A stretch of DNA of 60,294 nucleotides from a virus: IMG/VR virus record IMGVR_UViG_3300027499_000002; one strand, 5' to 3'. The position numbers and the translations under genes are program-made. Of the stretch, positions 128-60,294 are shown one piece after another. Under the pieces are notes generated by a model. The model was given only the letters and a program-made list of their open reading frames with translations. It searched no databases and had not been told where the DNA came from. How positions within the stretch are numbered: position 1 is the stretch's first letter; every line of letters begins with the position of its first letter.

Positions 128-752
128 TTACATTCCGACCGAAACAATACTGAACTGGTACGCACTGGTCCAAAAAGTCGCGGCGATTTACCAGTACAAC
201 AAACTTCGGATCAACTCGCTTGAAATCTCGGGCCAGGAATCGCAGTACCTAAACTGGACGGTTGCGTGTGTCGGTGAGCTTGAAGAGGTGTTCGGATCAA
301 GCTATCCGGCTACTCCGGTCCCTGAGTGCGGGACGGCATTCGTGCTTTCTGATTGCACCCTGACCTACGGTGCAACGGCGTACAAAATGCAATCGTTCAC
401 GCTGTCGATCGACAACTCCCTGGATCCGAACCAGTACGAAAACTCGCTGACTCCTACGAGGTTCGAGTCCCAAGACCTGATCGTTCAGCTATCAGTGCAG
501 ACGGCGTTCCGGTCGGATACTTTGGCCCTTTACGATGCAGCTCTGGCAGGTGCTGAGGCATCGCTGGCGGTGACGGATGGAACGACAACGTACTCGTTCA
601 ACTTTGGGAACTTGAAGTACATGAGCGGCGGTCCTACGGTCCCGGGTCGGGGACGAATCAATCAGGCTCTGACGTTCGAGGCCCTGCGAAAAACGAACAT
701 CTTGACGACCACGGCTGATAACCAAATTCACGTTACGAAGACCGTCGTATAG
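3..752 (+). CDS. major tail tube protein, C-terminal part (gene starts at 60032 and wraps the junction)
   Basis: The frame is open from the window start and is in phase with ATG 60032 once the 127-bp repeat is collapsed. It lies directly upstream of the chaperone, frameshift and tape-measure genes. Function is assigned by position only. Confidence 0.5.
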   Translation, partial: QRASCRARTLTQKSGGNISGNFGVQEIDFFLPRALGHAGAAPYIPTETILNWYALVQKVAAIYQYNKLRINSLEISGQESQYLNWTVACVGELEEVFGSSYPATPVPECGTAFVLSDCTLTYGATAYKMQSFTLSIDNSLDPNQYENSLTPTRFESQDLIVQLSVQTAFRSDTLALYDAALAGAEASLAVTDGTTTYSFNFGNLKYMSGGPTVPGRGRINQALTFEALRKTNILTTTADNQIHVTKTVV

Positions 753-34259: not shown

Positions 34260-34747
34260 TTGTTTCGTACTTGACGATGGCGGTCTGTGCAAACGGACTG
34301 GTGGGATATTTCGGGCCGGTGGTCTTGCCTTTGACCGCTTTGGCGATGATCCCGTTCGAGCTGACTGTGCGTGACGTTTTGCATGAAAGATGGAATGGAT
34401 CGTTTGGCAGGCTCTCGGCTGTTGTGGTCGCAGGATCGGCCGTATCGTGGATGGTGGCTCCGCTTGCGGTCTGTGTTGCGAGTGCGTCGGCGTTCTTTTT
34501 CAGCGGGTTGTCGGACTGGCTGGTGTACCTTTCCATGGCAGGACAGCCAAAGAATCGCAAGATGATCGCAAGCAATTCGGTATCTGCGATTGTGGACTCG
34601 ATGGCTTTTCAGTTGATTGCGTTCGGTGTAATCTCTTTGGAGATTCTGGTCTCGCAGTGCGGATTCAAGATCGTCGGCGGAATGGTTTGTGTTGCGGTGT
34701 TGGCTTGGATATCATCGAGAGGAAGAAACGATGCTGACTTGTACTAG
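34241..34747 (+). CDS. YhhQ/VUT-family queuosine-precursor transporter-like membrane protein (short)
   Basis: A multi-TM protein. SNSVSAIVDSMAFQLIAFG compares with E. coli YhhQ GNVSDTLAFFFIAF, and IPFELTVRDVLHE compares with FPFIFLATDLTVR. Confidence 0.55.
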   Translation: MDSRILVVSYLTMAVCANGLVGYFGPVVLPLTALAMIPFELTVRDVLHERWNGSFGRLSAVVVAGSAVSWMVAPLAVCVASASAFFFSGLSDWLVYLSMAGQPKNRKMIASNSVSAIVDSMAFQLIAFGVISLEILVSQCGFKIVGGMVCVAVLAWISSRGRNDADLY

Positions 34748-35153
34748 ACGAATTCAGTTCTGTGCCGGACACCGGGTACACGGCCACGAAACCAAATGCA
34801 AGAATCTCCATGGCCACAACTATGTCGCTTTGTTCGAGGCGCAAGGAGACTTGGATTCGATCGGTCGAGTGATTGATTTTTCCGTCCTAAAAGAGAAGCT
34901 CGGAGGATGGATCGATCAACATTGGGATCACGGATTCATTCTGTACAGTTACGATTTTGATGCGATCAATGCGGTTTCTGCACTTCCAGGAACCAAGATA
35001 CACTTGATGCCAAGCAATCCGACGGCTGAGAACATGGCAGAATTCCTGCTCAAGTTTATCGGTCCAGAGTGCTTGGCTGGAACGGGAGTGAAGTTGATTT
35101 CAGTCACACTTTGGGAAACAGAAAATTGCTATGCAAAAGCAGTATTGGATTAA
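34731..35153 (+). CDS. queD: 6-carboxy-5,6,7,8-tetrahydropterin synthase QueD
   Basis: Supported by RIQFCAGHRVHGHETKCKNLHGHNYVALFEA...VIDFSVLK. Confidence 0.8.
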   Translation: MLTCTRRIQFCAGHRVHGHETKCKNLHGHNYVALFEAQGDLDSIGRVIDFSVLKEKLGGWIDQHWDHGFILYSYDFDAINAVSALPGTKIHLMPSNPTAENMAEFLLKFIGPECLAGTGVKLISVTLWETENCYAKAVLD

Positions 35154-35745
35154 CGAGATTTACCTGAGTATCCAAGGAGAGGGCATTCGGACCGGAGAGC
35201 CTTCGATCTTCATGCGGTTCACTGGCTGCAATATGCGCTGCGATATACATGCCAACGACAAGTCGCCTGGGGGGTTTGCTTGTGATACCGAGTTCGAAAG
35301 CGGCCGAAAGATGACCGCCGATGAAATCCTCGACGAGCTGCAAACGATCAAGGGTGATTGCGTTTGGATTGTTATGACCGGAGGCGAGCCTGGGTTGCAA
35401 GTGGACGAAGACCTTCTGCAGAAGCTAAGTGAGGATGGTTTCAAGCTAGCGGTTGAAACCAACGGCTCGGTGGCATTGCCTGCGGGGTTCCACTGGATCA
35501 CAGTTAGTCCCAAGGTGGCTGAACATGCAATCAAGCAGCGAACCGCGAACGAGGTAAAATACGTTCGCGGATACGGACAGGCTTTGCCCAAGACCGTAGT
35601 ACAGGCCGAGCATTATTTGATCTCGCCAGCGTTCAGCGGATTGGAAACAGACGCTCGGACGCTGGCATGGTGCGAACAGTTGGTTTCTGAAAGCGATACT
35701 TGGAAGCTATCGCTGCAAACCCACAAGATGAACAATTGGAGGTGA
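35131..35745 (+). CDS. queE: 7-carboxy-7-deazaguanine synthase QueE (radical SAM)
   Basis: Supported by [33 protein letters not shown] and the downstream VMTGGEP. Confidence 0.8.
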
Positions 35746-35747
35746 AA

Positions 35748-36323
35748 ATGAAGTCGATCGATCCGGCTGAAATTCCATGCGCTGAGAATGCGGTTCGAGA
35801 CCTGCTTAGATCGATCGGAGAAGATCCCGACCGAGAAGGCTTGCTGGACACTCCCAAGCGGTATGCAAAGGCGTTGCGCGAAATGACCGCAGGCTACCAA
35901 ATGGAACCGAGCAAGATCCTCGAACGGGTATTCTCCGAGGACTGTGATCAAGTGATTGTCTTGAGGGGGATTCAATTTACTTCGATGTGCGAACACCATC
36001 TGTTGCCATTCGTCGGTGTGGCCGATGTTGCCTACCTTCCAGGTGGTTCGCGTGGAGTGGTAGGACTTTCCAAGCTGGCAAGGCTGGTCGAATGCTTCGC
36101 AAGGCGACTTCAAATTCAGGAGCGAATGACAAAACAGATCGCCGAAGCTCTAGTTGAAAACCTCCAGCCGAGGGGGGTCGCAGTAATCGTAAGGGCGAAA
36201 CATTCCTGCATGAGCTGCCGAGGTGTCTTGCAGCATGATAGCGAAATGATCACCTCGAGTATGCTTGGAATGTTCCGGGACAATGCCGAGGCAAGAGCAG
36301 AACTATTGCTGTTGGTGAAATAA
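35748..36323 (+). CDS. folE: GTP cyclohydrolase I FolE
   Basis: Supported by [19 protein letters not shown]...[12 protein letters not shown]...[32 protein letters not shown]. Confidence 0.85.
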
Positions 36324-36922
36324 TGAGCCGCCGTAAAAGCGGCGCGGAACGTCGAGCGATCCGCAATAGGAACAAAAGAGCTAGGTCAGGGGCGGTCGTT
36401 GGTGAAGACTGTCCCGGTCTGCCTCGCGTTGGTGACGAGAAACCAAACACGGAACAATCCGGATCGGTGGATCAAGTGTCGCTACACCAAAGCGATACGC
36501 CCAACGAGTTGCAACAATCAGAATCTCCCTGGTGGCGTGAGTTAAGCCCGGAAAACATCGCAAAGGCAAATGCGATGGGGATGGGGGGAGCCGTGAAGTC
36601 GATGATGGACAGGCGGCTGGAACTGCGAGCGGTCTCTGAAAACTGGCCGATAAGCCGAGACGTTCGGGAGCGAATCGTTTACGAATCGATGATGGTGCTT
36701 CTCGATCCGAAAGCAGACCCGAGGCTGAAACAACGTGAGCGATGGATGCTTCACAAGATGGCAGAATCCAACACAAAGCCAAGAGACCTGCCGGTACAAA
36801 TTACAGGCAATACGACGATCACAGTCAACCAAGTCTTGGCGATGCTCGACGGTAGTTCCTCAGACGACCTAGATTTTCGGGACAGAAAGATTCTGCCGGG
36901 GTCTGTAGATGACTACGCTTGA
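36323..36922 (+). CDS. terminase small subunit candidate (by position)
   Basis: 199 aa with a basic N-terminus. It lies immediately upstream of TerL and overlaps it. Confidence 0.4.
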   Translation: MSRRKSGAERRAIRNRNKRARSGAVVGEDCPGLPRVGDEKPNTEQSGSVDQVSLHQSDTPNELQQSESPWWRELSPENIAKANAMGMGGAVKSMMDRRLELRAVSENWPISRDVRERIVYESMMVLLDPKADPRLKQRERWMLHKMAESNTKPRDLPVQITGNTTITVNQVLAMLDGSSSDDLDFRDRKILPGSVDDYA

Positions 36923-38348
36923 GCAAGCCCGGGAAGCATTCGAGAACGCTCAGGCAATGCGTTCCCCGTTGCTGATGGCCGAACGATTCTCGAAGGGCGA
37001 ATGGAAACGGGCTCGGCACTTAGCAGTTATCGACTTCGAGTTTCGCAATTTATTGAACGATCCGAATTTAGATATCCTGATTGTGAAGTGTCCGGTACGG
37101 CACGGAAAAACTGAGTACCTAGCACACTGGGCTCCGGCTTGGTTTCTGCTTCGGAATCCATACTCGAAAATCATCCTTTGCACGAACACGGCAACGCTAG
37201 CGAACAATCATTCGCGGTGGGTGCGGGACAAGGTTCATGAGCTTTCCCCGATGATGGGATTGGCCGGTGTGGACCCAATGAACTCGGCGGTGAAGAACTG
37301 GCGGCTGGAGAAGACCCACGGAAGCTGTCTTGCTGCTGGCGTCGAGGGGTCGATTCCGGGGTTCGGTGCCAACCTTTTGATCATCGACGATTACATGAAG
37401 GACGCGAAGTCGGCTTACTCGCAGCGGGTTAGGGATTCCCAGTGGGATTGGTTCGTATCGACGAGCTCGACCCGTCTGGAACCGGGGGGCAAGTTGGTTT
37501 TACTTTGTACGCCTTGGCATCCGGACGACTTGATAGGTCGGATCGAATCGAAGAAAGAAGAGCTCGACTTGCGGGTCCGATCGATCACGCTGCAAGCACT
37601 GCGCGAGGGGACCGAAAAGAAGGATCCTCTCGGTAGGGCCGAAGGCGAAGCACTGTGGCCGGAACGCTGGCCGGCAGAGGTCATGCAGCGAAGGAAGCGA
37701 CAATCAGGCCACTGGTGGGACTCGATCTACCAGGGCAACCCGAAGGGGTCTTCCATGTCGAACTGGCCGGATGCCTACTTTCAAAATATTTGGGCTCAGG
37801 ACGATGAGTTCCCGGACCCTCGGAGCTGCTACCTGTCGGCATCGTTCTTGGATCCATCAAAGGGCAAGAACACTCGGAAGGGTGACTATCAGGCGATAAC
37901 CTGGATAGGCTATCAAAACGGTTTGTTCTATGTGGATTCGGATATCGAGCGTAGGCCAGTCCCGCAGATGCTCAGGACGTTCGTTGAGTGGAATCGAGAA
38001 CGTCGAACTGCATTCGTGGGGATCGAAGCGAACGCATGGCAAGACCTCCTTGCTGACCCCTACAACGAGCTTTGCCAGGAAATGGAGTACAACGCTGACC
38101 CGCCAAACCTCGTCAACCAGACGGTCAATAAGAACGTCAGGATCGAAAGGCTTGGCAAGTGGTTTAACGATCGGCGGTTTCGGTTCCGGAATACGGCATC
38201 GAACGAGCTGCTGATCGCTCAGGCCAAAGCGTTCCCGTATGGGGATCACGATGACGGGATAGACTCCCTGGAGGCTTGCTTGGCGATGCTTTGCCGGTCG
38301 GTAGATGCCCTGCATGGAATGCACGAAGTGACCGAGACGGAAATTTAG
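36909..38348 (+). CDS. terL: terminase large subunit
   Basis: It has Walker A-like KCPVRHGKTE, Walker B NLLIIDDY and the C-terminal nuclease Asp cluster GDHDDGIDSLE. 479 aa. Confidence 0.8.
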   Translation: MTTLEQAREAFENAQAMRSPLLMAERFSKGEWKRARHLAVIDFEFRNLLNDPNLDILIVKCPVRHGKTEYLAHWAPAWFLLRNPYSKIILCTNTATLANNHSRWVRDKVHELSPMMGLAGVDPMNSAVKNWRLEKTHGSCLAAGVEGSIPGFGANLLIIDDYMKDAKSAYSQRVRDSQWDWFVSTSSTRLEPGGKLVLLCTPWHPDDLIGRIESKKEELDLRVRSITLQALREGTEKKDPLGRAEGEALWPERWPAEVMQRRKRQSGHWWDSIYQGNPKGSSMSNWPDAYFQNIWAQDDEFPDPRSCYLSASFLDPSKGKNTRKGDYQAITWIGYQNGLFYVDSDIERRPVPQMLRTFVEWNRERRTAFVGIEANAWQDLLADPYNELCQEMEYNADPPNLVNQTVNKNVRIERLGKWFNDRRFRFRNTASNELLIAQAKAFPYGDHDDGIDSLEACLAMLCRSVDALHGMHEVTETEI

Positions 38349-44676: not shown

Positions 44677-47600
44677 ATGAACAAGATCGTCGAAACGCTG
44701 CAAGAGTCTCAAAGTCTAATCGAATCCTGGGGCGATGTCATCGACGTCACCGAGTTCATGACCGACACGCCAGGGTTCTTCCAGGCGAACTCCCTCGGCG
44801 TTTACACGCAAATTTATGACCGGGCCGATGGGCGATACCGTCCGGTCTACACCAACGAATCAGACCTGAAAATCATCCGGGCTATGGGCTGGCTGCTTGT
44901 CGAGCGGGTTCCGATGGCCCAAGCCTGGATCAACAGGCTGCTGGATTACACGATCGGGACAGGGTTCGACTGGACGATCAAGGCCAGCGATAAGCGACTG
45001 GAAAAGGCGATTCAAGCCTATGTGCGCGAGACCTTAGACAACTCGAAATGGTCCTCGGAACTCGAGCGCGAGAGCTACGCCAGGGAGGTCGGGGAGGGGG
45101 AATGCCTGATCGAGCACGTTTACGAAAACGGCCAATGCTTGGCGGTTGCTTGCGAGGCCGACGAACTGACCGAACCGGCTAGGAAGAACGAGCTCGAAGA
45201 CTGGATCGGAATCGATTACGTTCCTTCGTGGAGCTTCGGTGTTTTGACCCGGGAGAACAGGCCGCAGAATCCGATCGGGTATCACTTCGTCCGAAACGCA
45301 ACCGGAACGGATTGGGATTACGTTACGGCGGACAGGGTATCCCACTGGAAGCGGAACGTTCGGTCGCGAGCCAAGCGAGGTTTCTCGGACTTCTACAAGC
45401 CGCACTTGTACTTGCTGAGGGCCGATCGAGTGCTGACCAACACGGCAGAAGGGGCAGCGACTCAAGCGGCGATTGCTTACATCGTGGAGCACAAGGACGG
45501 CCAGCAACGGCAGGCAGAAAATATCGTCAAGCGGTTCTCCGCTCCGACAGGTCGAGTCGACCCGATGACCGGGATCATGGAACGCAAACGCAAGATGAAA
45601 CCAGGGACACGCTTGGACGTTCCCGATGGCCAAACCTACAAGGCCGGTTTGCTTGGCGCCAACAACTCAGGGATCTATATCGAGGTTATGGAGGCTGCTT
45701 TAAGGCTTGCTGGATCGGTTCATGCGTTCGTTGAGGGGATGCTGACTGGATCCTATGCGAACAACAATTTTGCCTCGGCGCTGGTGGCCGAAGGTCCGTT
45801 CATGCAGGGGAGGCTTGCCGAGCAGAGCCAACGCAAAGAACGAATGCGTGAAATGATCCTCAAGATGATTCGCCTGGGGGCCGGTAAGAGGCGATTTGCG
45901 GCTGTGGGTTATGATTCCTGGGATTCAATTCAGGATGCGATTACCGTCGAAGTGATCCCGTCTAGGATCGTTCCGATGGACCCGCTCAAGACGGCACAAG
46001 CCTTAGAGGTCCAGAAGCGAAACGGCTGGGTCTCAGACAAGACCTGTATCAACGAGCTTGGGCGAGATATCGATACCGAAACTGCCAATGGACTCAAGAT
46101 CGGCGGTGCTGAGAATCAACCCGGTGCCGGTGGTCAACCAGGAGCACAAACCAACGAAAACACAGGTGCAGCGGTTCCGGATCTTGGAAACGTTTCCAAA
46201 ACCGAGCAGGAGCAGGGCGGCGAATGGCTCGGGATTACCACGGTGCAATGGCGTCGAAACCGCAAGGCAATCACTGACGTTCTGACTGATTTCGCCAGGG
46301 GGAAGCTTAAGCGGAATGTCGCGAAGGTTCTGCTTCGATCGATCGGGATTCCGGACAGGGGAATCGAGACCATTCTGGACGACGCATCGGACGGGCAAAT
46401 CGATTCGATGCCACAAATGGAATCTTTGACCGAGGCCGAACGCAAGACGCTCAACAAGCCGTTCCGGACCTCCGGGGGGCCGAAGAAGTTTTCGGTCTAC
46501 GTGAAGAACCAAAAAGGCAACGTTGTAAAAGTCAACTTCGGTGATCCGAAGATGCGGATCAAGAGAGACGACCCTGGAAGCCGACGCAATTTCAGGGCTC
46601 GGCACAACTGCGACAGTCCAGGGCCGAAATGGAAGGCCAAATACTGGTCTTGTCGGATGTGGTCCAAGCCAAGCGTGACGAAGATCCTCAAGGAGTCTTT
46701 GGAGACTGGCGAAATCGGCTGGGACGGCAGGACGTTTGTTCGGGAGTCTTGGTTGTACAGGCAGAACCCAAGGCTGTTGGAAGTCCGCGACGGAGACGGC
46801 GACGGCAAAATCAACGACGGGAAACCAAGCGAAGCTCCTGCGGAAAAGAAGGACAAGAAAAAAAGCAACACTGTGAATCCCAAGGTTCTTGAATGGGCCA
46901 AGAAAAAGTTCAAGGACGATGCAAAGGCGCAAAACTTTGCTGAGTGGTTCGGGGATTCAAAGGTAGTCGATGCCGATGGGAATCCTTTGGTGGTCTATCA
47001 TGGAACGGATAAAAAGTTCGAAAAATTCAAGCCGTCGGAAAAAGGAATGCTTGGTAAAGGCATTTACTCGTCAGCGAAAAAAGAAGATTACGGAACTTAC
47101 TCCGCATACGCAAAAAAAGAAAACGCAGCGGTAATGCCTTTGTATGTGAAATTGGAAAATCCTCATATCGCAATCGCTGGCAAGCCCGATACGTTCGATG
47201 CGAAGCCAGAAAATGATGGCACAATTATGATTGATAGCCGAACAAAGGCCATAGTTTGGGCTGTAGCCAAAAATCCTGATCAGATCAAATCGGCAACCGG
47301 AAACAAAGGCTCGTTCAACCCGAAGTCCAACAAGATCAACGAATCACTCCAAGAGGCCAAAGACGGAGACGGAGACGGTCTGATCGATGATGGCAAGCCA
47401 ACACAGCGAGCAGCACCACCGAAGCAACCGAAAGCGAAGGCTGCAAAAGGAAAGGCCGTAGCAAAGCCAAAGGCACCAAAGCCAACTGACGATGAAAAGT
47501 TTCAAGCCTTTGAAAAACTGATCGCTGCAAAATCAGACGAAGATAAAGCAGCGTTCCGAAAATCCAAAGCCGATGGGGTATCGATTCCAATCGCCTGGAC

Positions 47601-48306
47601 TGAGGTCGCCTATTATGGCAAGGACGCTGATATCATCGCTGAGGGTCGAGACTCGAAGGGCCGCAAGCAACGAGCGGAACGACCGGACTACAGGCAAGGA
47701 CTGAGCGACCAAAACAACGCTCGAATCGCGAAGGAGCTGACACCAAAAATGGACGCAATCCGAAAGCAGTTGCGTGAGGATGCCATCGACGGAAACGAAG
47801 AATCGAAGGTGCTCTATCTGATCGCAATGACTGGATTCCGGATCGGCGGAAAGGGTGACGGCAAAGCCGAAACCGAAGCGTTTGGAGCCTCGACGCTAAG
47901 GGGCGAACACGTGAAGATCAAAGGGGATACTGTCACGTTCGATTTCCCAGGGAAAAAAGGCGTCCAACAGCAACATTCTCTGAAAGATTCTGTTGTGGCT
48001 AGCTGGTTTGGTGGCGTTAAACCTGAGGAGAATCTGTTCAAAACTCGGGATGTCAAAGTCCGTGAGGCATGGCAAGAAAAGTATGGTGGCGTCAAAGTCC
48101 ACGATATTCGACACGCCGTTGCATCGGAACTGGCAAAGGCAAACCTAGCGAAACTGATTCCACCTAAGCCCAAGAACAAGAAAGAATCCGACGCCTTGAA
48201 AACGAAGGTCGGAACGATCGTAGGCGAAAAGCTTGGCAACAATCCAAGCCAAGCCATTGGCACGTACATTGACCCATCCCTTTGGAAAGTATTGCAGGTC
48301 GCATAA
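44677..48306 (+). CDS. portal protein fused to a polyvalent C-terminal extension (PARP-like ADP-ribosyltransferase plus type IB topoisomerase)
   Basis: One uninterrupted 1209-aa ORF. Residues 1-470 are portal-sized and followed by the MuF gene. Residues 590-662 carry the FGD..RHNC..YWSC module. Residues 750-830 contain NFAEWFGDSKVVD..VVYHGT...GKGIYSS...YVKLENP. Residues 965-1209 contain FRIGG..STLRGEHV..FDFPGKKGV..VHDIRH..GTYIDPSLW. Confidence 0.65.
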   Translation: MNKIVETLQESQSLIESWGDVIDVTEFMTDTPGFFQANSLGVYTQIYDRADGRYRPVYTNESDLKIIRAMGWLLVERVPMAQAWINRLLDYTIGTGFDWTIKASDKRLEKAIQAYVRETLDNSKWSSELERESYAREVGEGECLIEHVYENGQCLAVACEADELTEPARKNELEDWIGIDYVPSWSFGVLTRENRPQNPIGYHFVRNATGTDWDYVTADRVSHWKRNVRSRAKRGFSDFYKPHLYLLRADRVLTNTAEGAATQAAIAYIVEHKDGQQRQAENIVKRFSAPTGRVDPMTGIMERKRKMKPGTRLDVPDGQTYKAGLLGANNSGIYIEVMEAALRLAGSVHAFVEGMLTGSYANNNFASALVAEGPFMQGRLAEQSQRKERMREMILKMIRLGAGKRRFAAVGYDSWDSIQDAITVEVIPSRIVPMDPLKTAQALEVQKRNGWVSDKTCINELGRDIDTETANGLKIGGAENQPGAGGQPGAQTNENTGAAVPDLGNVSKTEQEQGGEWLGITTVQWRRNRKAITDVLTDFARGKLKRNVAKVLLRSIGIPDRGIETILDDASDGQIDSMPQMESLTEAERKTLNKPFRTSGGPKKFSVYVKNQKGNVVKVNFGDPKMRIKRDDPGSRRNFRARHNCDSPGPKWKAKYWSCRMWSKPSVTKILKESLETGEIGWDGRTFVRESWLYRQNPRLLEVRDGDGDGKINDGKPSEAPAEKKDKKKSNTVNPKVLEWAKKKFKDDAKAQNFAEWFGDSKVVDADGNPLVVYHGTDKKFEKFKPSEKGMLGKGIYSSAKKEDYGTYSAYAKKENAAVMPLYVKLENPHIAIAGKPDTFDAKPENDGTIMIDSRTKAIVWAVAKNPDQIKSATGNKGSFNPKSNKINESLQEAKDGDGDGLIDDGKPTQRAAPPKQPKAKAAKGKAVAKPKAPKPTDDEKFQAFEKLIAAKSDEDKAAFRKSKADGVSIPIAWTEVAYYGKDADIIAEGRDSKGRKQRAERPDYRQGLSDQNNARIAKELTPKMDAIRKQLREDAIDGNEESKVLYLIAMTGFRIGGKGDGKAETEAFGASTLRGEHVKIKGDTVTFDFPGKKGVQQQHSLKDSVVASWFGGVKPEENLFKTRDVKVREAWQEKYGGVKVHDIRHAVASELAKANLAKLIPPKPKNKKESDALKTKVGTIVGEKLGNNPSQAIGTYIDPSLWKVLQVA
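46184..46199. repeat. palindrome copy TTGGAAACGTTTCCAA (16/16)
   Basis: Lies in the Gly/Gln-rich linker just after the portal domain, where it is read as G-N-V-S. Confidence 0.95.
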
Positions 48307-51480: not shown

Positions 51481-51549
51481 CCATTCGAAACAAGTTGCTC
51501 CTATCGTGGGGGCGGCGGTAAGTTTTCTCTAAGAGAATTGAAAAGAAAC

Positions 51550-52704
51550 ATGCGAAACGCGAAAACAAACCGTCACCAGAATCTGCGACGGCTTTACGAG
51601 GCTTCGATCCGAGACAACAACGTCGAACGCTTCATGGAAGACTTTCGGCTGGCGCTTGAACAAGATCGAGCAAGCCTTGGGGATCGATATTCGGTCCGCG
51701 AGCTTTTCGAGCAATTTGTTCCGGATGGCCGCGAGGCTGTAGCGATGCTTGCGCCAACGACTTCGGGCGGATTCCAAATCCTGGAGTCTGCGGAACTGGT
51801 CGACACTTCCCAATTTGCGAACATCCTCGGACAGATCACCTACACGGCGACCCTGAACGGGTACAACGCACCGGAGTATATCGGAGACCAACTGGTCGAA
51901 ACGATTCCGACTGTGTTCTCAGGTGAGCGGATTCCTGGTGTGGGACGGCTCGGCGATGACGTTGATATCGTTTCTGAGGGTGCGGAATACCCGAACGCAG
52001 TTTTCGGTGAAGAGTTCGTCGACACGCCCGAGACGATCAAGCGTGGTCTGATCCTCAATGTGACCCGAGAAGCGATCTTCTTCGATCGTACCGGGGTGCT
52101 GATGAGCGAATGTGGTAAGACCGGCGAGCGAGTTCGCGTGAGCAAAGAAAAGCGGATCTTCGATGTGGTCTGCGGGATCGTTACAATCTATCGCCGAAAC
52201 GGTGCGGCTGCGGTTGCAACTTATCAAAGCGAAAACACCGTCTCGAATACGCTTGCTGACTTTACCTCGATCGATACGGTCGAGCAGAAGTTCAACACGA
52301 TGAGCGACCCGATCACTGGCGAACCGATTTCAATCGAGCTCGATACGATCTTGGTCCCCAAGGCCCTGAGCAACCTTGCAGGCCGAATCATGACAGCAAG
52401 CCAAACTCGAAGCGGAACGAACAGCGGGAACACTCAAACGTATGTTCCTGGGAACTCGGTCAACGTGAATGCAAGGGTTTTGACAAGCCCCTATGTTCGC
52501 CAGAAGACGACCAACGATACGACTTGGTTTGCCGGTCGACCTCGTGAAGCTTTCGTCTACATGCAAAACTGGCCGTTGACAGTGACCCAAGCCGGAGAGA
52601 ATTCCGAAGTCGGATTCACCCGGGACATTGTCGTTCGGTACAAGACCTCGGAGCGGGGCGCGGCAGGCGTTCGCGATCGACTCAAGATGTGCCGTTGCAC
52701 TTAA
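51550..52704 (+). CDS. major capsid protein (HK97-fold candidate)
   Basis: About 384 aa, in the expected position. It is followed by the strongest terminator in the genome. I use ATG 51550, although the track starts at TTG 51538. Confidence 0.65.
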   Translation: MRNAKTNRHQNLRRLYEASIRDNNVERFMEDFRLALEQDRASLGDRYSVRELFEQFVPDGREAVAMLAPTTSGGFQILESAELVDTSQFANILGQITYTATLNGYNAPEYIGDQLVETIPTVFSGERIPGVGRLGDDVDIVSEGAEYPNAVFGEEFVDTPETIKRGLILNVTREAIFFDRTGVLMSECGKTGERVRVSKEKRIFDVVCGIVTIYRRNGAAAVATYQSENTVSNTLADFTSIDTVEQKFNTMSDPITGEPISIELDTILVPKALSNLAGRIMTASQTRSGTNSGNTQTYVPGNSVNVNARVLTSPYVRQKTTNDTTWFAGRPREAFVYMQNWPLTVTQAGENSEVGFTRDIVVRYKTSERGAAGVRDRLKMCRCT

Positions 52705-53392: not shown

Positions 53393-53653
53393 ATGAGCGT
53401 ACTTACGGATCTGAAAGCACGACGAGCGACGGTTGCAGCAACGCTTGCCTCTATGTCGATCACTTCGATCGGTGGCAAGCCGAATGCAATGACGGCTGAC
53501 GGTGGCACTTCGGTCGATCACGTTGGGTTCCGAAAGTCGCTTCTCGAAGAGTTAAAAATGCTCGACGAAGCGATCCTGCGCGAGGCTGAGGTCCAGGCTG
53601 CGATAGACGACGAAGACGGCTCTTGGGAAATCGAATCACAGGTGTATTCATGA
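53393..53653 (+). CDS. gpW-like head-tail joining protein candidate
   Basis: 86 aa. The pattern LTDLKARRATVAATL...DGGTSVDHVGFRKSLLEELKMLDEAI resembles lambda gpW. Confidence 0.35.
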   Translation: MSVLTDLKARRATVAATLASMSITSIGGKPNAMTADGGTSVDHVGFRKSLLEELKMLDEAILREAEVQAAIDDEDGSWEIESQVYS

Positions 53654-54009
53654 CCATCAAATGCAGTATCGTTTCGGTTACGATTCCTAGCACCGAAACC
53701 GAAAGCAACTCTGTTGATATTCCCGAGGGCCAAAGCCTGTGTGCAATCTCGACGAACGAGGACGGATTCGACGGAGCAAACGTTGGGTATCAAGTCCAGT
53801 TTGACGGAACAAACTGGCTGCGGGTTCATGCCGTGGATTCGACGACCCATCACACAACGCTACTCGGAGCGACCAAGGGCTATGTCCCTGTCAACTCTAA
53901 CCTGTTCCTAGCTTCGGCTGCTGGGTACAAAGCAAAGATCCGCCTAAAGGCTGCAACGGCACAAACCGGTGCAATCACGTTCCAACTTCACTTCCGAGAG
54001 ATTCAATGA
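53650..54009 (+). CDS. hypothetical structural protein
   Basis: 119 aa with an ATGA overlap. Confidence 0.4.
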   Translation: MTIKCSIVSVTIPSTETESNSVDIPEGQSLCAISTNEDGFDGANVGYQVQFDGTNWLRVHAVDSTTHHTTLLGATKGYVPVNSNLFLASAAGYKAKIRLKAATAQTGAITFQLHFREIQ

Positions 54010-54473
54010 TGCAACCGAAGATTTTTGGCTTTCCTGAGTTCGCAATGGGTATCGCTCTTGGGCTGATTCTCGGTGTTTTCATTGGGATTGTGCAACCAAA
54101 GCTTGGAAACGTTTCCAAGAATCAGGACGCTGATCCGACCGACAAGATCGTCGCAGAGCTTACCGAAGCCTATCAGCAAATGCTCGCCGAGCGTAAGGCC
54201 AACGCTGAAAAGCAGTCCGAGCCTCAAGCGAGCTTGGAACCGACGATCAAAAAAGAGATCATCGTTTTTACACTTCCGAATTGTCCACCGTGCAAGACTT
54301 GGCTGGAAAATTCAAAACCATTTTGGGATGCCGGATGGACGGTCGCAGAGTGCGACAATACGCAGCATTCCTACACCAAGGCTCCAACGTTTCAAATCTG
54401 TGTCGGAGACCGGTGCTATACGTGCGTAGGCTCGCTGTCTCTGGAGTATGCTGAGCAACTGGCAAGGAGATAG
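54006..54473 (+). CDS. membrane-anchored thioredoxin-fold protein (CPPC)
   Basis: It has an N-terminal TM helix (FAMGIALGLILGVFIGIV) followed by IIVFTLPNCPPCKTW. Confidence 0.55.
   Translation: MMQPKIFGFPEFAMGIALGLILGVFIGIVQPKLGNVSKNQDADPTDKIVAELTEAYQQMLAERKANAEKQSEPQASLEPTIKKEIIVFTLPNCPPCKTWLENSKPFWDAGWTVAECDNTQHSYTKAPTFQICVGDRCYTCVGSLSLEYAEQLARR
54103..54118. repeat. palindrome copy TTGGAAACGTTTCCAA (16/16; 18-bp palindrome 54102-54119)
   Basis: Lies in the linker after the TM helix of the thioredoxin-fold protein, where it is read as G-N-V-S. Confidence 0.95.
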
Positions 54474-54478
54474 ACTTG

Positions 54479-55024
54479 ATGATCGGATGGCTTGTTTTCA
54501 TCGTTGTTTCTTGGCTGTCTGCTGACTTCATTGCAGGACTTTTCCACTGGTGGGAAGATACATACCTGACGCAAAGCGACTCGTTTATCGGGCGTCTGAT
54601 TGGTGGTCCAAATCAGCTCCACCATGCGGACCAGTACGCTTTCCTCAAGGGCTCATACTGGGAGCGAAACTACACGACGATCGTTCCAAGCCTGACGGCC
54701 ATGCTGATCTGTTTGACTTTCGAACCACTGCGCGACGGATGGCTTACGATGCTGTTTTTATCTCAAGCAAATCAGATTCACGCACTCGCGCACAGCAAAG
54801 GGAAGAACGGCTGGCTGGTTGTTTGGATGCAGCGTCTGTACATCTTTCAAAGCCCGAAGCATAATGCTGTTCACCATCGGAACCCGTTTCATGTTCGGTA
54901 TTGCGTGATGACGCCGATCCTGAATCCGGTGCTCGATGCTGTTTCTTTTTGGCGAGTCCTGGAGTTTTTTGTGCTTGCAGTTTTTTGGATTTTACCGAGA
55001 GTAAATCATGGAACCGTTGATTGA
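54479..55024 (+). CDS. CarF/TMEM189(PEDS1)/FAD4-family membrane lipid desaturase
   Basis: His-box segments align by eye with human TMEM189: ADFIAGLFHWWEDTY vs ADFGSGLVHWGADTW, NQLHHAD vs FREHHID, ANQIHALAHS vs TNQIHKWSHT, SPKHNAVHHRNPF vs PRKHHRIHHVSPH, and FWRVLE vs FWRRLE. Confidence 0.75.
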   Translation: MIGWLVFIVVSWLSADFIAGLFHWWEDTYLTQSDSFIGRLIGGPNQLHHADQYAFLKGSYWERNYTTIVPSLTAMLICLTFEPLRDGWLTMLFLSQANQIHALAHSKGKNGWLVVWMQRLYIFQSPKHNAVHHRNPFHVRYCVMTPILNPVLDAVSFWRVLEFFVLAVFWILPRVNHGTVD

Positions 55025-55448
55025 AAAACTTAGGGAAGCCGAGCACGTAAACTTGAGCGATCAAGCGGCTGCTGATGCGATCAACGCTATGACAGTGCAA
55101 GTCAAGCAATTGGCTTCTGCATTAAAAATAAAGGAATGGTCATTCGACGAGCAACTTTATTCCGCAATTATTGAAGGTTGTTCGTCTTCGGACACCCAAA
55201 TTAGGAAGCTCTGTATAAACATTCGGGGATGGATTGACGACCCAAGAGTGCAGAACGTTGACCTAGACAAGCCGTCAGCAATTGCAACGATGAATGGACT
55301 TATTGAAACCGGCATGGCTTCAAGCGATCAAGTAGATCGACTCAAAACTCTTAGATGGAAAACAATCAAGTGGACTGAATCGGTAGGCTTGCCAGCCTTA
55401 ACGCCCGGAGCCGTTAGAGTAGCTAGAGAATACATGGGGGTCAAATAA
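55008..55448 (+). CDS. hypothetical protein
   Basis: 146 aa. Confidence 0.45.
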   Translation: MEPLIEKLREAEHVNLSDQAAADAINAMTVQVKQLASALKIKEWSFDEQLYSAIIEGCSSSDTQIRKLCINIRGWIDDPRVQNVDLDKPSAIATMNGLIETGMASSDQVDRLKTLRWKTIKWTESVGLPALTPGAVRVAREYMGVK

Positions 55449-56053
55449 TGCCAACAGTAACGAAGACGACTCCGACATTTACGCAGATTTACGCTCCGGC
55501 AATTCTTGCAGACTCATCGCTTGGAACATTGCAGACTCTTGATTTAACAGCCAAAATCGGAGCGACATTGCTTGTTTGGATCGGTCGCAGGGCATCGACC
55601 GCACCAACCAGGGCGGGCTATGTCGCGATCCGAAACAGCGACAATAACGCGGCGGTTTTTCCGTCGCAGGTCTTTGACGTTGTTGGCCAGGGTCCGACGA
55701 CAGCGGCAGCAGCAACAACGCTTTCGGCTAATGCTTCGAGCGGTGCCAGCACCATTTCGATCACTAGCGCGACTGGTTTCGCCGTGGGTGATACGATTTG
55801 CCTCTCCGAGTCTGGAGGGACCAGGTTGCAGTTTGCGAGAATTGCAGGCTTGAGCGGTACGACACTTACGCTTGAGCGAAATTTAAGAGCGGCAAGCAAT
55901 AGCGGAGACACGGTTTCCAATCTTGCCGACGCTAGGCGGATCTACATTCCTGGCGGTGACATCTACGAAATCCGAACCGTAAACTATAGCGGCCTGGCAT
56001 TGGTCTTTGCGGTTGAGGCGATTGTTGACAACGGAGATACCATCACACCATAA
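55448..56053 (+). CDS. structural protein (Ala/Thr/Ser-rich)
   Basis: 201 aa with a TAATG overlap. Confidence 0.4.
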   Translation: MPTVTKTTPTFTQIYAPAILADSSLGTLQTLDLTAKIGATLLVWIGRRASTAPTRAGYVAIRNSDNNAAVFPSQVFDVVGQGPTTAAAATTLSANASSGASTISITSATGFAVGDTICLSESGGTRLQFARIAGLSGTTLTLERNLRAASNSGDTVSNLADARRIYIPGGDIYEIRTVNYSGLALVFAVEAIVDNGDTITP

Positions 56054-56817
56054 TGCTGGCGTACTACGGGCCGGAATGGGAAAGTCTTGCAAGCCGAATG
56101 GTTGACCGATGGTGTCCGTCGTTTTCTGGCAACACCGGGTTGCAGTTGCCCAGCACGATGGGAAGGAACCATGGGACGTTGACGAACATGGACCGGAATA
56201 CGTCGTGGCAAACCAACCCAGACAGGTTGTCCCTCTCGTTTGCCGGAGGATCTATCACGCATGTTGCATTCGCGGCAATTTCCTTGGGCACAATTCATTC
56301 TTGCTGCGCGTGGGTAAATCCGGTGTCTCAATTAGTTCCGTTTAATTTCGGAGGCTTCCTTGGCGACGGATCGGGAAATACTGCTCCTCTGTTTGTTGGC
56401 GGTTTAACCGCTACAAATTTCGGGTACACCGCAGGGGCCGGTGAAGTAAGCTTTGTGGGATCATCTATGATCGGATCATGGAATCACATCGCATCTGTTC
56501 GCATCGGGACGGCGGTTTCGCTTTTTCGAAACGGCATACAAGTTGCGAGCGGTACGCTGCCGGTCAATGACGCAGCAAGCCCGAGCCGAATCGGGCACAG
56601 AAACGGCACCTTTTTTTATTCTGGTCTAGCCGACGACGTTATTCTTTTCAACACCGCCCTAACCGCATCCGAATCCCGTTTCATCTACGAGCAAGGCCGG
56701 GGCGGTGGACTGCTCATGCAACCACCGAGACGACGATCCTACTTTGCTCAAGTAACAACCTTGAAAAACTATTGGTTCAGAAACCAGCAACGAATGATTG
56801 GTGGGGGAATTAGATAA
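56053..56817 (+). CDS. LamG/concanavalin-like domain structural protein
   Basis: The C-terminal hallmark is GLADDVILFNTALTASESRFIYEQG. Confidence 0.5.
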   Translation: MLAYYGPEWESLASRMVDRWCPSFSGNTGLQLPSTMGRNHGTLTNMDRNTSWQTNPDRLSLSFAGGSITHVAFAAISLGTIHSCCAWVNPVSQLVPFNFGGFLGDGSGNTAPLFVGGLTATNFGYTAGAGEVSFVGSSMIGSWNHIASVRIGTAVSLFRNGIQVASGTLPVNDAASPSRIGHRNGTFFYSGLADDVILFNTALTASESRFIYEQGRGGGLLMQPPRRRSYFAQVTTLKNYWFRNQQRMIGGGIR

Positions 56818-60031: not shown

Positions 60032-60294
60032 ATGTCGCAAGCAACTGCAAGCCGTCTTATCGTTTCGGACTCTGTGACCTGGGGCAGCGGGATCGGGGTC
60101 GCGTTCAATGAATGCTCCCTGGTCGGGCAGCGAACAGTTGGCATCCATCAAGGCCATCGAGGCACGCGCCAGAGGGCTAGTTGTCGGGCTAGGACGCTAA
60201 CTCAGAAATCCGGTGGCAATATTTCCGGGAATTTCGGTGTCCAGGAAATCGATTTTTTCCTGCCCAGGGCGCTCGGTCACGCGGGGGCTGCTCC
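60032..60294 (+). CDS. major tail tube protein, N-terminal part (continues at 3..752 after collapsing the 127-bp repeat)
   Basis: From ATG 60032 there is no stop before the window end, and the frame is in phase with 3..752. Confidence 0.5.
   Translation, partial: MSQATASRLIVSDSVTWGSGIGVAFNECSLVGQRTVGIHQGHRGTRQRASCRARTLTQKSGGNISGNFGVQEIDFFLPRALGHAGAA
60168..60294. repeat. 127-bp terminal redundancy (copy of 1..127)
   Basis: Identical to the first 127 nt. Confidence 0.9.

What the first reader, a model, noticed from the sequence alone, without database searches (positions are those of the whole stretch)
54006..55024. Phage-encoded CarF/TMEM189/FAD4-type lipid desaturase paired with a membrane-anchored CPPC thioredoxin-fold protein
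ORF 54479..55024 aligns by eye along its whole length with the TMEM189 (PEDS1)/CarF/FAD4 desaturase family, including all the His-rich boxes (HWWED, HHAD, QIHALAH, KHNAVHH). Members of this family make plasmalogen vinyl-ether bonds (CarF, PEDS1) or the 16:1 delta-3-trans fatty acid (FAD4).

The gene immediately upstream is separated by only 5 nt. It encodes a single-pass membrane protein with a thioredoxin-fold CPPC motif. Plant FAD4 is known to depend on the thioredoxin-fold protein peroxiredoxin Q, so a desaturase plus redox-partner two-gene module is plausible.

Both genes are embedded in the head/connector structural block, which is the placement of a late-expressed moron. The lipid desaturases I know from cyanophages belong to the classical FA_desaturase family, not this one. 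A phage that remodels host ether or unsaturated lipids late in infection would be new. The gene also gives a hint about the host, which must have a suitable lipid substrate.
Basis: partly seen in the sequence, partly recalled or inferred. Interest (0 to 1): 0.7.

Follow-up and report, generated by a model that had tools for sequence, protein, structure and literature searches.

The report
Phage lipid desaturase beside thioredoxin-like gene
A complete phage genome, probably from a virus of planctomycete bacteria, carries a host-derived membrane lipid desaturase gene next to a thioredoxin-like gene, but the two are not an obligate pair, the enzyme is not the plasmalogen-making type, and this copy has lost one of its eight essential iron-binding histidines.

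Summary
Both ORFs exist as described. ORF 54479..55024 is a full-length PF10520 lipid desaturase (E=2.6e-33). ORF 54006..54473 is a membrane-anchored protein whose C-terminal domain folds as a thioredoxin with CPPC. The window is a complete ~60.2 kb phage genome, and the pair lies between head and tail genes.

- The desaturase lacks the PEDS1/CarF-specific His and Phe. It scores 72 bits against the 500-bit CarF equivalog cut-off, so a plasmalogen product is unlikely.
- The "KHNAVHH" box is a mutated "KHHxxHH". Asn129 replaces a His found in 171 of 173 homologues and in every close relative. The equivalent His is essential in mouse PEDS1.
- The nearest cellular homologues are in Pirellulaceae (Planctomycetota). 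Prophages there carry the gene too, which points to the host.
- The thioredoxin-like gene belongs to a separate phage family. In 5 of 7 sampled loci it occurs without a desaturase.
- Conversely, the desaturase occurs without it in 2 of 15 related viral loci, three Pirellulaceae (pro)phage loci, an Erythrobacter phage and all 73 loci from bacterial genome assemblies.
- One sublineage has lost the first Cys of the motif.
- The thioredoxin domain is probably periplasmic, while the di-iron site is cytoplasmic.

Verdict: a real phage-borne PF10520 desaturase, not reported in the literature searched. A redox-partner module is not supported.

The parts
54479..55024 (+). PF10520 (Lipid_desat) membrane di-iron desaturase homologue, 181 aa, of the short bacterial type
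   Evidence: Pfam E=2.6e-33, full domain. AF2 model mean pLDDT 84.8, all-helical. The library of cluster representatives holds 1263 with E<=1e-3. dN/dS against relatives is 0.04-0.20.
54545..54559 (+). His box 1, HWWED: H23 and D27, equivalent to mouse PEDS1 H96 and D100
   Evidence: Constant offset of -73 to the mouse residue numbers given in PMC8960569. H23 is kept in 171 of 173 homologues and D27 in 169 of 173.
54620..54625 (+). His box 2: H48 and H49, equivalent to mouse H121 and H122
   Evidence: Each is kept in 171 of 173 homologues.
54779..54793 (+). His box 3, HALAH: H101 and H105, equivalent to mouse H187 and H191
   Evidence: Each is kept in 172 of 173 homologues.
54860..54877 (+). 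His box 4, H128-N129-A-V-H132-H133. The family consensus is H-H-x-x-H-H, equivalent to mouse H214, H215, H218 and H219.
54863..54865 (+). Codon 129, AAT (Asn), where 11 related viral loci have CAT or CAC (His). This is a private substitution at an essential metal-ligand position.
   Evidence: His at this column in 171 of 173 homologues. It is the only column with >=93% conservation at which the window differs. All 14 other listed members of its own 90% cluster have His. Codons compared. The exact Asn129 protein is also on record in JGI, Logan and ENA assemblies.
54006..54473 (+). Membrane-anchored thioredoxin-fold protein, 155 aa. Hydrophobic anchor at about aa 11-29, helical linker aa 44-69, thioredoxin-like domain aa 83-155.
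   Evidence: AF2 gives beta-alpha-beta-beta-beta-alpha with pLDDT 80-91 in the domain. Top Foldseek PDB hits are thioredoxins, probability 1.00, E=3.5e-4. 29 of 42 family members hit PF13098 at E<=0.01. Hydropathy.
54282..54293 (+). CPPC motif (C93-P-P-C96) at the N-terminus of helix alpha-1. The invariant Pro127 lies just before beta-3, where the thioredoxin cis-Pro loop would be.
54465..54470 (+). AGGAGA Shine-Dalgarno-like sequence, 8 nt upstream of the desaturase ATG and inside the end of the CPPC gene
   Evidence: Read directly from the sequence.
53623..54009 (+). Upstream conserved ORF (128 aa, unknown function). Its stop overlaps the CPPC start (ATGA). It marks the left edge of the variable slot.
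   Evidence: In relative L012 the same ORF is followed by an S8 peptidase cassette instead.
55008..55448 (+). Downstream conserved ORF (146 aa, unknown function), overlapping the desaturase by 17 nt. It marks the right edge of the variable slot.
   Evidence: Its homologue directly follows the cassette in L090, which has no desaturase.
51538..52704 (+). Major capsid protein (PF25209). It anchors the structural-block context.

Best explanation
The window is a complete ~60.2 kb tailed-phage genome whose host is most likely a member of Pirellulaceae (Planctomycetota).

A variable slot lies between the head genes and the tail genes. In it the phage carries a host-derived gene for a short (181 aa) membrane di-iron desaturase of family PF10520.

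Shown here:
- Family membership.
- Strong purifying selection across the phage clade.
- A sister relationship to Pirellulaceae chromosomal and prophage copies.
- Tight in-line packing with the late structural genes.

Inferred:
- The enzyme is made late in infection, inserts in the host cytoplasmic membrane with its His-rich loops in the cytoplasm, and draws electrons from host donors. No ferredoxin, cytochrome b5 or reductase family was found among the phage's ORFs.
- It introduces a double bond close to the glycerol end of a chain on an intact host glycerophospholipid. That is what both characterised family members do.
- It belongs to the large uncharacterised bacterial branch, not to CarF/PEDS1, so the product is probably not a plasmalogen.
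- In this genome a single C-to-A change has turned essential ligand His129 into Asn, so this copy may be weakened or inactive.

The upstream CPPC protein is a genuine thioredoxin-fold protein. It belongs to a separate, phage-specific family. In most relatives that family sits in its own cassette, with a 270-274 aa putative cysteine protease directly upstream and a ~70 aa membrane coiled-coil protein downstream.

It most likely acts as an exported thiol-disulfide oxidoreductase on the host envelope. It is probably not the desaturase's electron donor. The two genes are neighbours because they share the same insertion hot spot.
For: Family and active site:
- PF10520 at E=2.6e-33, full length.
- Seven of the eight family His, plus the essential Asp, map at constant offsets to the mutagenised mouse PEDS1 residues.
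- dN/dS is 0.04-0.20 for the desaturase.

Origin and host:
- The closest cellular homologues are in Pirellulaceae (45-51% identity).
- An NJ tree puts the phage clade sister to the Pirellulaceae clade.
- L017 is chromosomal, on a 570 kb contig with a SASA esterase neighbour.
- L023, in a complete Pirellulaceae chromosome, is a prophage with terminase and portal. L019 carries a portal and L018 a large terminase, so both also look phage-derived. All three carry the gene.

Not PEDS1:
- The window has Gly58 and Asn45. Phe45 and His58 co-occur in 11 of the aligned homologues.
- It scores 71.9 bits against the 500-bit CarF equivalog cut-off.
- Homologues lacking that His did not complement carF.

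His129Asn.

Electron donor and expression:
- The Pfam families reported for 81 window ORFs include no redox carrier.
- No promoter or terminator excess around the genes.

Thioredoxin-like protein:
- Thioredoxin fold.
- The family has 268 members, all unnamed.
All 7 have a 270-274 aa ORF as the preceding gene and a 58-91 aa ORF directly after.
- The desaturase lacks a thioredoxin-like neighbour in L008 and L016, in all 73 genome loci and in the Erythrobacter phage.
- The first Cys is lost in L002, L006, L007 and L012.

Topology:
- The His-bearing loops carry 2.9 and 5.8 K+R on average, against 0-0.7 on the other side.
- In the thioredoxin family the flank after the anchor is net negative.

Weak hints:
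- DsbG (E=4e-4).
- Papain-like protease 3ois (E=0.034).
- Holin phrog_9987 (E=0.0017).
Against: - No lipid product, substrate or electron donor was tested.
- The host is assigned from one gene's phylogeny plus prophage precedents. The NJ tree has no bootstrap support and contains no reference CarF, PEDS1 or FAD4 sequences.
- The periplasmic placement of the thioredoxin domain rests on a weak charge bias. In the window protein itself both flanks are net neutral.
- Within this phage group 13 of 15 loci with upstream DNA do have a thioredoxin-like homologue within about 1 kb of the desaturase.
- The window's sublineage (window, L001, L004, L005) keeps only these two genes of the cassette, joined by 5 nt. 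A facultative functional link would also explain that.
- The protease and holin assignments of cassette neighbours are below significance.
- Asn at the first position of the last box may be tolerated. From memory, front-end desaturases use Gln there, and SCD1 uses an Asn-held water.
Confidence: 0.6

Rival explanations
1. The CPPC thioredoxin-fold protein and the desaturase form a dedicated two-gene module. The CPPC protein activates or supplies reducing power to the desaturase, as peroxiredoxin Q does for plant FAD4.
For: - The genes are 5 nt apart with a Shine-Dalgarno-like sequence in between.
- 13 of 15 related viral loci with upstream DNA have a homologue upstream of the desaturase.
- In the window's sublineage only these two genes remain in the slot.
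- Both genes are under purifying selection.
- FAD4 activity is enhanced by PRXQ.
Against: - The thioredoxin-like gene occurs without a desaturase in 5 of 7 sampled loci.
- The desaturase occurs without it in L008, L016, 73 genome loci, three Pirellulaceae (pro)phage loci and the Erythrobacter phage.
- In most relatives a 58-112 aa ORF separates the two genes.
- The nucleophilic first Cys is lost in four loci that keep an intact desaturase.
- The protein is not a peroxiredoxin; there is no AhpC-TSA hit.
- The two proteins probably face opposite sides of the membrane.
Confidence: 0.2
2. The enzyme is a CarF/PEDS1-type plasmanylethanolamine desaturase. The phage converts host alkyl-ether lipids into plasmalogens.
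For: - It belongs to the same Pfam family.
- The best NCBIfam hit is the CarF model (E=5e-20).
- The essential Asp (D27) and seven of the eight His are present.
Against: - It scores 71.9 bits against the 500-bit equivalog cut-off.
- The ninth His required for CarF and TMEM189 function is Gly58, and F118 is Asn45.
- Homologues without that His (three from Arabidopsis, one from Bradyrhizobium) failed to complement carF.
- The phage clade groups with Planctomycetota, not with the single Myxococcota sequence in the tree.
Confidence: 0.07
3. In this genome the desaturase gene is a recently inactivated passenger. The His129Asn change abolishes di-iron binding, so the protein does nothing catalytic here. 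The gene may still function in sister phages.
For: - Asn129 is private to this genome. His occupies the column in 171 of 173 homologues and in all cluster mates.
- Alanine substitution of the equivalent His abolishes activity in mouse PEDS1, human TMEM189 and CarF.
Against: - The ORF is otherwise intact, with no other departure at conserved columns.
- Pairwise dN/dS to relatives is as low as between the relatives themselves, though this cannot isolate the terminal branch.
- Asn was not the substitution tested. Amide side chains occupy the analogous position in other membrane desaturases (own recollection).
- His128 lies next to it.
Confidence: 0.3

Closest known systems
FAD4 (plant and algal chloroplast 16:1 delta-3-trans desaturase acting on phosphatidylglycerol), PF10520
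   Same: It shares the Pfam family and the eight-His motif architecture (seven are kept here). Like FAD4 it lacks the PEDS1-specific ninth His. It presumably acts on an intact membrane glycerophospholipid. A thioredoxin-superfamily protein is nearby, as PRXQ is functionally for FAD4.
   Different: It is a 181-aa minimal form encoded by a phage. Position 58 is Gly, not the Arg usual in plants. The neighbouring protein is a CxxC thioredoxin-like protein, not a peroxiredoxin, and is dispensable across relatives. Substrate and regiochemistry are unknown.
CarF / PEDS1 (TMEM189) plasmanylethanolamine desaturase
   Same: It shares the Pfam family. It has the essential Asp after the first His, and the His spacing is identical.
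   Different: It lacks mouse H131 and F118 equivalents. It falls far below the NCBIfam equivalog cut-off. It lacks the extra N-terminal region of CarF and PEDS1, since NCBIfam profile positions 1-59 are not matched. The window copy also lacks the H215 equivalent.
Uncharacterised short bacterial PF10520 proteins (Planctomycetota, Verrucomicrobiota, Acidobacteriota, Bacteroidota, Alphaproteobacteria and others)
   Same: They match in length (about 170-200 aa), in motif pattern (Asn45, no His58) and in 45-51% identity to the Pirellulaceae copies.
   Different: The gene is carried on a phage genome inside the structural block. In the PNAS 2026 phylogeny a fully bacterial clade of 229 PEDS1 homologues is collapsed without comment; whether these short bacterial proteins belong to it was not checked. 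No function is known for them.
Viral lipid desaturase genes: cyanophage FA_desaturase-type auxiliary genes (own knowledge) and the giant-virus PF10520 protein of Harvfovirus (A0A3G5A308)
   Same: Each is a virus-encoded membrane lipid desaturase taken from a host. The Harvfovirus protein has the same fold (Foldseek E=1.5e-4, TM-score 0.66).
   Different: The family differs from the cyanophage genes. The host domain differs from the giant virus. Phage PF10520 genes are so far annotated only as hypothetical proteins.
Membrane-anchored or periplasmic thiol-disulfide oxidoreductases (DsbA/DsbG/TlpA-like proteins, periplasmic TrxP)
   Same: The CPPC protein has an N-terminal anchor or signal followed by a thioredoxin fold with CxxC and a proline just before beta-3. 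It gives weak sequence hits to DsbG and fold hits that include B. fragilis TrxP.
   Different: It has a minimal 73-aa domain without the helical insertions of DsbA or DsbG. It gets no Pfam hit of its own. It is phage-specific and linked to a putative protease gene.

Membership tests
PF10520 Lipid_desat (PEDS1/CarF/FAD4 superfamily) | Profile HMM match above Pfam's gathering score, over the whole domain | tested here: met
   115.9 bits against 26.4, E=2.6e-33. Residues 12-174 cover profile positions 1-173 of 175.
PF10520 Lipid_desat (PEDS1/CarF/FAD4 superfamily) | Eight conserved, essential histidines (mouse PEDS1 H96, H121, H122, H187, H191, H215, H218, H219) | tested here: not met
   Seven of eight are present: H23, H48, H49, H101, H105, H132 and H133. 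The H215 equivalent is Asn129. His occupies that column in 171 of 173 homologues and in all close relatives. Sister phages meet the feature.
PF10520 Lipid_desat (PEDS1/CarF/FAD4 superfamily) | Essential Asp four residues after the first His (mouse D100) | tested here: met
   D27 in HWWED. Asp is kept in 169 of 173 homologues.
PF10520 Lipid_desat (PEDS1/CarF/FAD4 superfamily) | Multi-pass membrane topology with all His on the cytoplasmic side | tested here: inconclusive
   The AF2 model is all-helical. Hydrophobic segments lie at 4-22, about 66-95 and 154-172. K+R residues are enriched in the His loops. This is consistent with the CarF topology but is only predicted.
PF10520 Lipid_desat (PEDS1/CarF/FAD4 superfamily) | Di-iron binding and O2-dependent desaturase activity | not testable with these tools
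   Requires protein expression, metal analysis and lipidomics.
CarF/PEDS1 plasmanylethanolamine desaturase (equivalog) | NCBIfam equivalog NF045946 score above its curated cut-off | tested here: not met
   71.9 bits against a cut-off of 500. The Pirellulaceae chromosomal homologue scores 93 bits.
CarF/PEDS1 plasmanylethanolamine desaturase (equivalog) | Ninth functionally required His (CarF H113, mouse H131) and Phe (mouse F118) | tested here: not met
   The window has Gly58 and Asn45. Phe45 and His58 co-occur in 11 other sequences of the alignment. Their requirement is documented.
CarF/PEDS1 plasmanylethanolamine desaturase (equivalog) | The host or genome supplies alkyl-ether lipid precursors (AGPS, FAR and GNPAT-type genes) | not tested
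   No such Pfam family appeared among the window ORFs. Host genomes were not examined.
FAD4-type delta-3-trans desaturase | Grouping with plastid FAD4 sequences, and Arg at the position of PEDS1 H131 | tested here: inconclusive
   Position 58 is Gly, not Arg. No reference FAD4 sequence was available for a tree.
Thioredoxin fold (CxxC oxidoreductase) | Beta-alpha-beta plus beta-beta-alpha core, CxxC at the N-terminus of helix 1, and a conserved Pro just before beta-3 | tested here: met
   AF2 places beta-1 at 83-89, C93-C96, alpha-1 at 94-101 and beta-3 at 128-133, preceded by invariant P127. pLDDT is 80-91. Foldseek matches thioredoxins with probability 1.00 and E=3.5e-4.
Thioredoxin fold (CxxC oxidoreductase) | Profile HMM match to a thioredoxin-like Pfam family | tested here: inconclusive
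   The window protein itself gives no Pfam hit. 29 of 42 relatives hit PF13098 at E<=0.01. It hits phrog_22 at E=7e-4. A profile search against PDB sequences found nothing.
FAD4-PRXQ-like desaturase/redox-partner pair | The partner is a peroxiredoxin | tested here: not met
   No AhpC-TSA or Redoxin hit. The motif is a thioredoxin-type CxxC.
FAD4-PRXQ-like desaturase/redox-partner pair | The two genes co-occur consistently across relatives | tested here: not met
   Each gene occurs without the other. Four loci have lost the first Cys.
FAD4-PRXQ-like desaturase/redox-partner pair | The partner stimulates desaturase activity | not testable with these tools
   Requires co-expression and lipid analysis.

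The most novel reading that the evidence does not exclude
Phages of Pirellulaceae carry, in one hot spot between head and tail genes, an envelope-attack cassette. It would combine a secreted protease (papain-like, subtilisin or trypsin type, depending on lineage), an exported CPPC thiol-disulfide oxidoreductase and a PF10520 lipid desaturase. Together these would dismantle or remodel the unusual planctomycete envelope, which is protein-rich and cystine-cross-linked (own knowledge), and its membrane at the end of infection. On this reading the desaturase is a lysis or exit factor rather than a metabolic booster. The recurrent protease-desaturase neighbourhood seen in at least four phage lineages would be functional.
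Probability: 0.15. Interest if true: 0.75.

Novelty: new member of a known kind. Interest (0 to 1): 0.45.

Why it matters
Only two activities are known in PF10520: PEDS1/CarF and FAD4. The large bacterial branch of the family has no assigned function.

A clade of phage and prophage copies under strong purifying selection shows that this lipid modification matters during infection of planctomycetes. Almost no phages are characterised for that phylum.

It also gives a compact 181-aa, easily expressed entry point for finding the reaction this branch catalyses.

The gene gives a concrete host prediction (Pirellulaceae) for a group of uncultured phages whose capsid has no match in the phage database.

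The natural His129Asn variant and its His129 sisters form a ready-made test of the ligand's role.

The negative result on the redox-partner idea prevents an attractive but unsupported annotation from spreading.

Tried and rejected
- Foldseek of the desaturase model against the PDB gave only non-significant hits. The best meaningful one was the Scs7p fatty-acid 2-hydroxylase, TM-score 0.38-0.46, E>1. No PF10520 structure has been solved.
- The capsid protein gave no tblastn match in the phage collection.
- Cassette proteins seen in relatives (proteases and small membrane proteins) were searched in the window and none is present.
- Pfam and PHROGs scans of those cassette proteins were mostly empty. 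Only weak hints emerged (3ois, holin).
- A profile of the thioredoxin-like family against PDB sequences found nothing.
- A look-up of contigs encoding the exact window desaturase returned nothing, although the protein itself is in the collection.
- I considered that the CPPC protein serves ribonucleotide reduction, as phrog_22's category suggests. I rejected this because no ribonucleotide reductase family appears among the window ORFs and the protein has a membrane anchor.
- I considered that the extra Cys of the window lineage (C116, C132, C137, C140) form an Fe-S site of the thioredoxin-like ferredoxin kind. I rejected this as the main reading because these Cys are not conserved in the wider family.
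- I could not inspect the geometry of Asn129 in the model, because coordinates are not exposed.
- I could not run a multimer prediction.
Full report
**1. Observation**

- The upstream ORF runs from ATG 54006 to stop 54471-54473 (155 aa). Its start overlaps the stop of ORF 53623..54009 (ATGA).
- The desaturase ORF starts at ATG 54479, five nucleotides after that stop. An AGGAGA lies 8 nt upstream of the ATG. The ORF ends at 55024 and overlaps the next ORF (55008..55448) by 17 nt.
- The 181-aa protein matches Pfam PF10520 (Lipid_desat) at E=2.6e-33 across 173 of 175 profile positions.
- The strings HWWED, HHAD, QIHALAH and KHNAVHH are all present.

**2. The window is a complete phage genome**

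- Its first 127 bases recur at 60168-60294.
- It encodes a large terminase (36909..38348). It also encodes a 1209-aa fusion of a portal, an ADP-ribosyltransferase and a topoisomerase IB core (44677..48306).
- Further structural genes are a MuF-like protein, a PF25209 capsid protein (51538..52704), a Laminin_G_3 protein (56053..56817) and a tail tube protein at 288..752.
- The two genes therefore sit between head and tail genes, all on the + strand.
- Promoter-like and terminator-like sites in 51-57 kb do not exceed the shuffled expectation. Co-transcription with the late structural genes is an inference from this packing.

**3. The active site**

Mutagenesis of mouse PEDS1 defined eight essential histidines: H96, H121, H122, H187, H191, H215, H218 and H219. 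It also defined an essential D100. H131 and F118 are important in PEDS1 and CarF only, and H214 is dispensable.

- These residues map at constant offsets (-73, then -86) onto the window protein. The equivalents are H23, D27, H48, H49, H101, H105, position 129, H132 and H133.
- In an alignment with 173 homologues, each of these columns holds His in 171-172 sequences.
- The window protein has Asn at 129. This is the only column with at least 93% conservation at which it differs.
- All 14 other listed members of its own 90%-identity cluster read KHH(A/S)VHH.
- The 11 related viral loci whose codon was read have CAT or CAC where the window has AAT at 54863-54865.
- The exact Asn129 protein is on record from JGI, Logan and ENA assemblies. 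I cannot tell whether those assemblies are independent samples.
- The retained neighbour His128 corresponds to the dispensable mouse H214.

This copy lacks one essential ligand. Asn itself has not been tested at this position. Amide side chains are used at the analogous place in other membrane desaturases (my recollection), so I call the copy possibly impaired, not proven dead.

**4. Which branch of the family**

- The PEDS1/CarF-specific His is Gly58 here, and the Phe is Asn45. Among the aligned homologues, Phe45 and His58 co-occur in 11 sequences, which marks a separate PEDS1-like subgroup.
- NCBIfam's CarF equivalog model gives 71.9 bits against a 500-bit cut-off.
- Homologues lacking that His (three from Arabidopsis and one from Bradyrhizobium) failed to replace CarF.
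- Plasmalogen synthesis is therefore unlikely.
- The protein belongs to the large short-form bacterial branch. The library of cluster representatives holds 1263 with E<=1e-3, and many of the best 150 are 170-200 aa long. No function is known for this branch.
- Both characterised family members act on intact glycerophospholipids and place the double bond next to the glycerol end of a chain. I take that as the most likely type of reaction here. This is inference.

**5. Origin and host**

- A scan of one genome per prokaryotic species found 73 loci. The nine most similar (45-51% identity) are all from Planctomycetota, eight of them assigned to Pirellulaceae: Aureliella, Pirellula and strain SH501.
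- A neighbour-joining tree places the phage clade as sister to that Pirellulaceae clade. The tree has no bootstrap support.
- The Aureliella copy lies in a 570-kb contig among ordinary genes.
- The SH501 copy, in a complete chromosome, lies in a prophage next to a gpA-type terminase and a lambda-type portal. Two more Pirellulaceae-assigned contigs (L018, L019) carry phage genes around the same desaturase: a large terminase in L018; a portal, capsid and minor tail protein in L019.
- Sixteen IMG/VR contigs carry close relatives at 58-92% identity.
- Pairwise dN/dS is 0.04-0.20, so the gene is maintained by selection in this phage group.
- In the curated phage collection only Erythrobacter phage vB_EliS-L02 (37.5% identity, annotated as hypothetical) and one uncultured 595-kb phage have a match.
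- Among predicted viral structures, a Harvfovirus "lipid desaturase domain" protein and one unnamed protein share the fold.
- No paper in the searched library links phages with this family. The Erythrobacter phage paper does not mention the gene.

**6. The upstream protein**

- It gets no Pfam hit of its own and a weak phrog_22 (thioredoxin domain) hit.
- A profile search found 268 relatives, all unnamed. Several carry a precomputed PF13098 hit, and 29 of 42 aligned members hit PF13098 at E<=0.01.
- With that alignment, AlphaFold2 predicts a hydrophobic helix at 12-28, a long linker helix at 44-69 and a C-terminal beta-alpha-beta-beta-beta-alpha domain at 83-155 with pLDDT 80-91.
- CPPC sits at the start of helix 1, and the invariant Pro127 comes just before beta-3.
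- Foldseek's best PDB matches are thioredoxins (probability 1.00, E=3.5e-4) and include the periplasmic TrxP of Bacteroides.
- The thioredoxin fold is therefore confirmed. The protein is not a peroxiredoxin.

**7. Is it the desaturase's partner?**

Evidence for a link:
- 13 of 15 related viral loci with upstream DNA have a homologue within about 1 kb upstream of the desaturase.
- In the window's own sublineage (window, L001, L004, L005) only these two genes fill the slot.

Evidence against:
Five lack a desaturase and two have one.
- All seven have a 270-274 aa ORF as the preceding gene (abutting or overlapping in most) and a 58-91 aa ORF directly after. These are the family's constant neighbours. 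In the sequences I read (L014, L015) the small ORF has a hydrophobic N-terminal stretch followed by a helix-like charged tail; I call it a membrane coiled-coil protein from inspection only.
- The desaturase lacks any thioredoxin-like neighbour in L008 and L016, in all 73 genome loci, in the three Pirellulaceae (pro)phage loci and in the Erythrobacter phage.
- In L002, L006, L007 and L012 the homologue has lost the first, nucleophilic Cys, yet the desaturase is intact.
- In most relatives another small ORF separates the two genes.
- Topology points the same way. The desaturase's His-bearing loops are rich in Lys and Arg (means 2.9 and 5.8, against 0-0.7 on the other side). That matches the experimentally cytoplasmic His of CarF.
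- In the thioredoxin-like family the stretch after the hydrophobic segment is net negative, which suggests an exported domain. This charge bias is weak, and the window protein itself is neutral on both flanks.
- The Pfam families reported for the 81 window ORFs include no ferredoxin, cytochrome b5, flavodoxin or reductase (the call lists 25 of 29 families).

I conclude that the two genes share an insertion hot spot rather than an obligate function. A facultative link remains possible, and I give it about 0.2.

**8. What the thioredoxin-like cassette may be**

- The 274-aa neighbour gives a sub-threshold hit to a papain-like cysteine protease (3ois, E=0.034).
- A 61-aa ORF of the cassette gives a sub-threshold holin hit.
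- The CPPC region gives a sub-threshold DsbG hit.
- Independently, the desaturase follows a peptidase gene in several lineages: an S8 subtilase in L002 (Pfam), with closely similar ORFs in L012 and L016, and a trypsin-like enzyme in L018, L019 and L023. The L019 enzyme has a signal-peptide-like N-terminus.
- Planctomycete envelopes are reported to be rich in protein and cystine (my recollection, not checked here). A protease plus an exported thiol-disulfide oxidoreductase would then make sense as an envelope-directed or lysis-associated set.
- This is a lead, not a finding. The window itself has none of the protease or small membrane genes.

**9. Verdict**

The finding is a new, literature-unreported phage member of a known enzyme family. 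It gives a useful host prediction and carries a natural ligand-site variant.

The plasmalogen reading and the dedicated redox-partner module are not supported.

Noticed in passing
window 44677-48306 (+): A single 1209-aa ORF combines a lambda-family portal domain, an ART-PolyVal ADP-ribosyltransferase domain and a eukaryotic-type topoisomerase IB catalytic core. This is a polyvalent portal fusion.
   Followed up: no
window 34241-36323 (+) and 30411-30887 (+): Four genes for 7-deazaguanine precursor synthesis lie in a row just upstream of the terminase. They are a Vut_1-like transporter (34241-34747), PTPS/QueD (34689-35153), a radical SAM QueE-like enzyme (35131-35745) and GTP cyclohydrolase I (35700-36323). 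A DUF6884 protein lies at 30411-30887. Together they suggest modified DNA bases.
   Followed up: partly
window 1-127 and 60168-60294: A 127-bp direct terminal repeat shows the window is a complete genome of about 60.17 kb. A tail tube gene (PF18906) at 288-752 shows that the structural block continues across the ends.
   Followed up: partly
L018:91-1347, L019:4777-5940, L023:4641-5945; also L002:2944-3870, L012:165-1085, L016:3400-4344: In several unrelated phage and prophage lineages the PF10520 desaturase lies just downstream of a peptidase gene. It is trypsin-like in three Pirellulaceae loci and an S8 subtilase in the window's relatives. The recurrence is unexplained.
   Followed up: partly
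L090-L097, L009, L014 (e.g. L014:1242-2063): A conserved 270-274 aa protein precedes the thioredoxin-like gene in all seven sampled family loci, and a similar ~275-aa ORF precedes it in L009 and L014. It has no Pfam or PHROG hit and only a sub-threshold match to a papain-like cysteine protease (3ois, E=0.034). With small membrane ORFs, one of which is weakly holin-like, it looks like a lysis or envelope cassette.
   Followed up: partly
L002:5431-5727, L006, L007, L012:2617-2913: A 98-aa version of the thioredoxin-like protein has lost the first Cys of CxxC (N-R-E-C). It keeps the second Cys, the conserved Trp and the conserved Pro just before beta-3. This is a redox-inactive or monothiol variant retained next to the desaturase.
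   Followed up: partly
window 54351-54353, 54399-54425 (CPPC protein residues C116, C132, C137, C140): The window's sublineage of the thioredoxin-like protein has four extra cysteines, three of them on the beta-3/beta-4 hairpin (ICVGDRCYTC). They are not conserved in the wider family. They may form structural disulfides or a metal site.
   Followed up: no
window 51538-52704 (+): The capsid protein (PF25209) has no tblastn match at E<=1e-5 in the 50,697-record phage collection. The phage group is unrepresented among deposited phage genomes.
   Followed up: no
window 22467-23609 (+): A 380-aa DUF5131 protein matches the 243-position profile in two stretches (E=1.3e-71). This suggests an insertion within the domain.
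   Followed up: no
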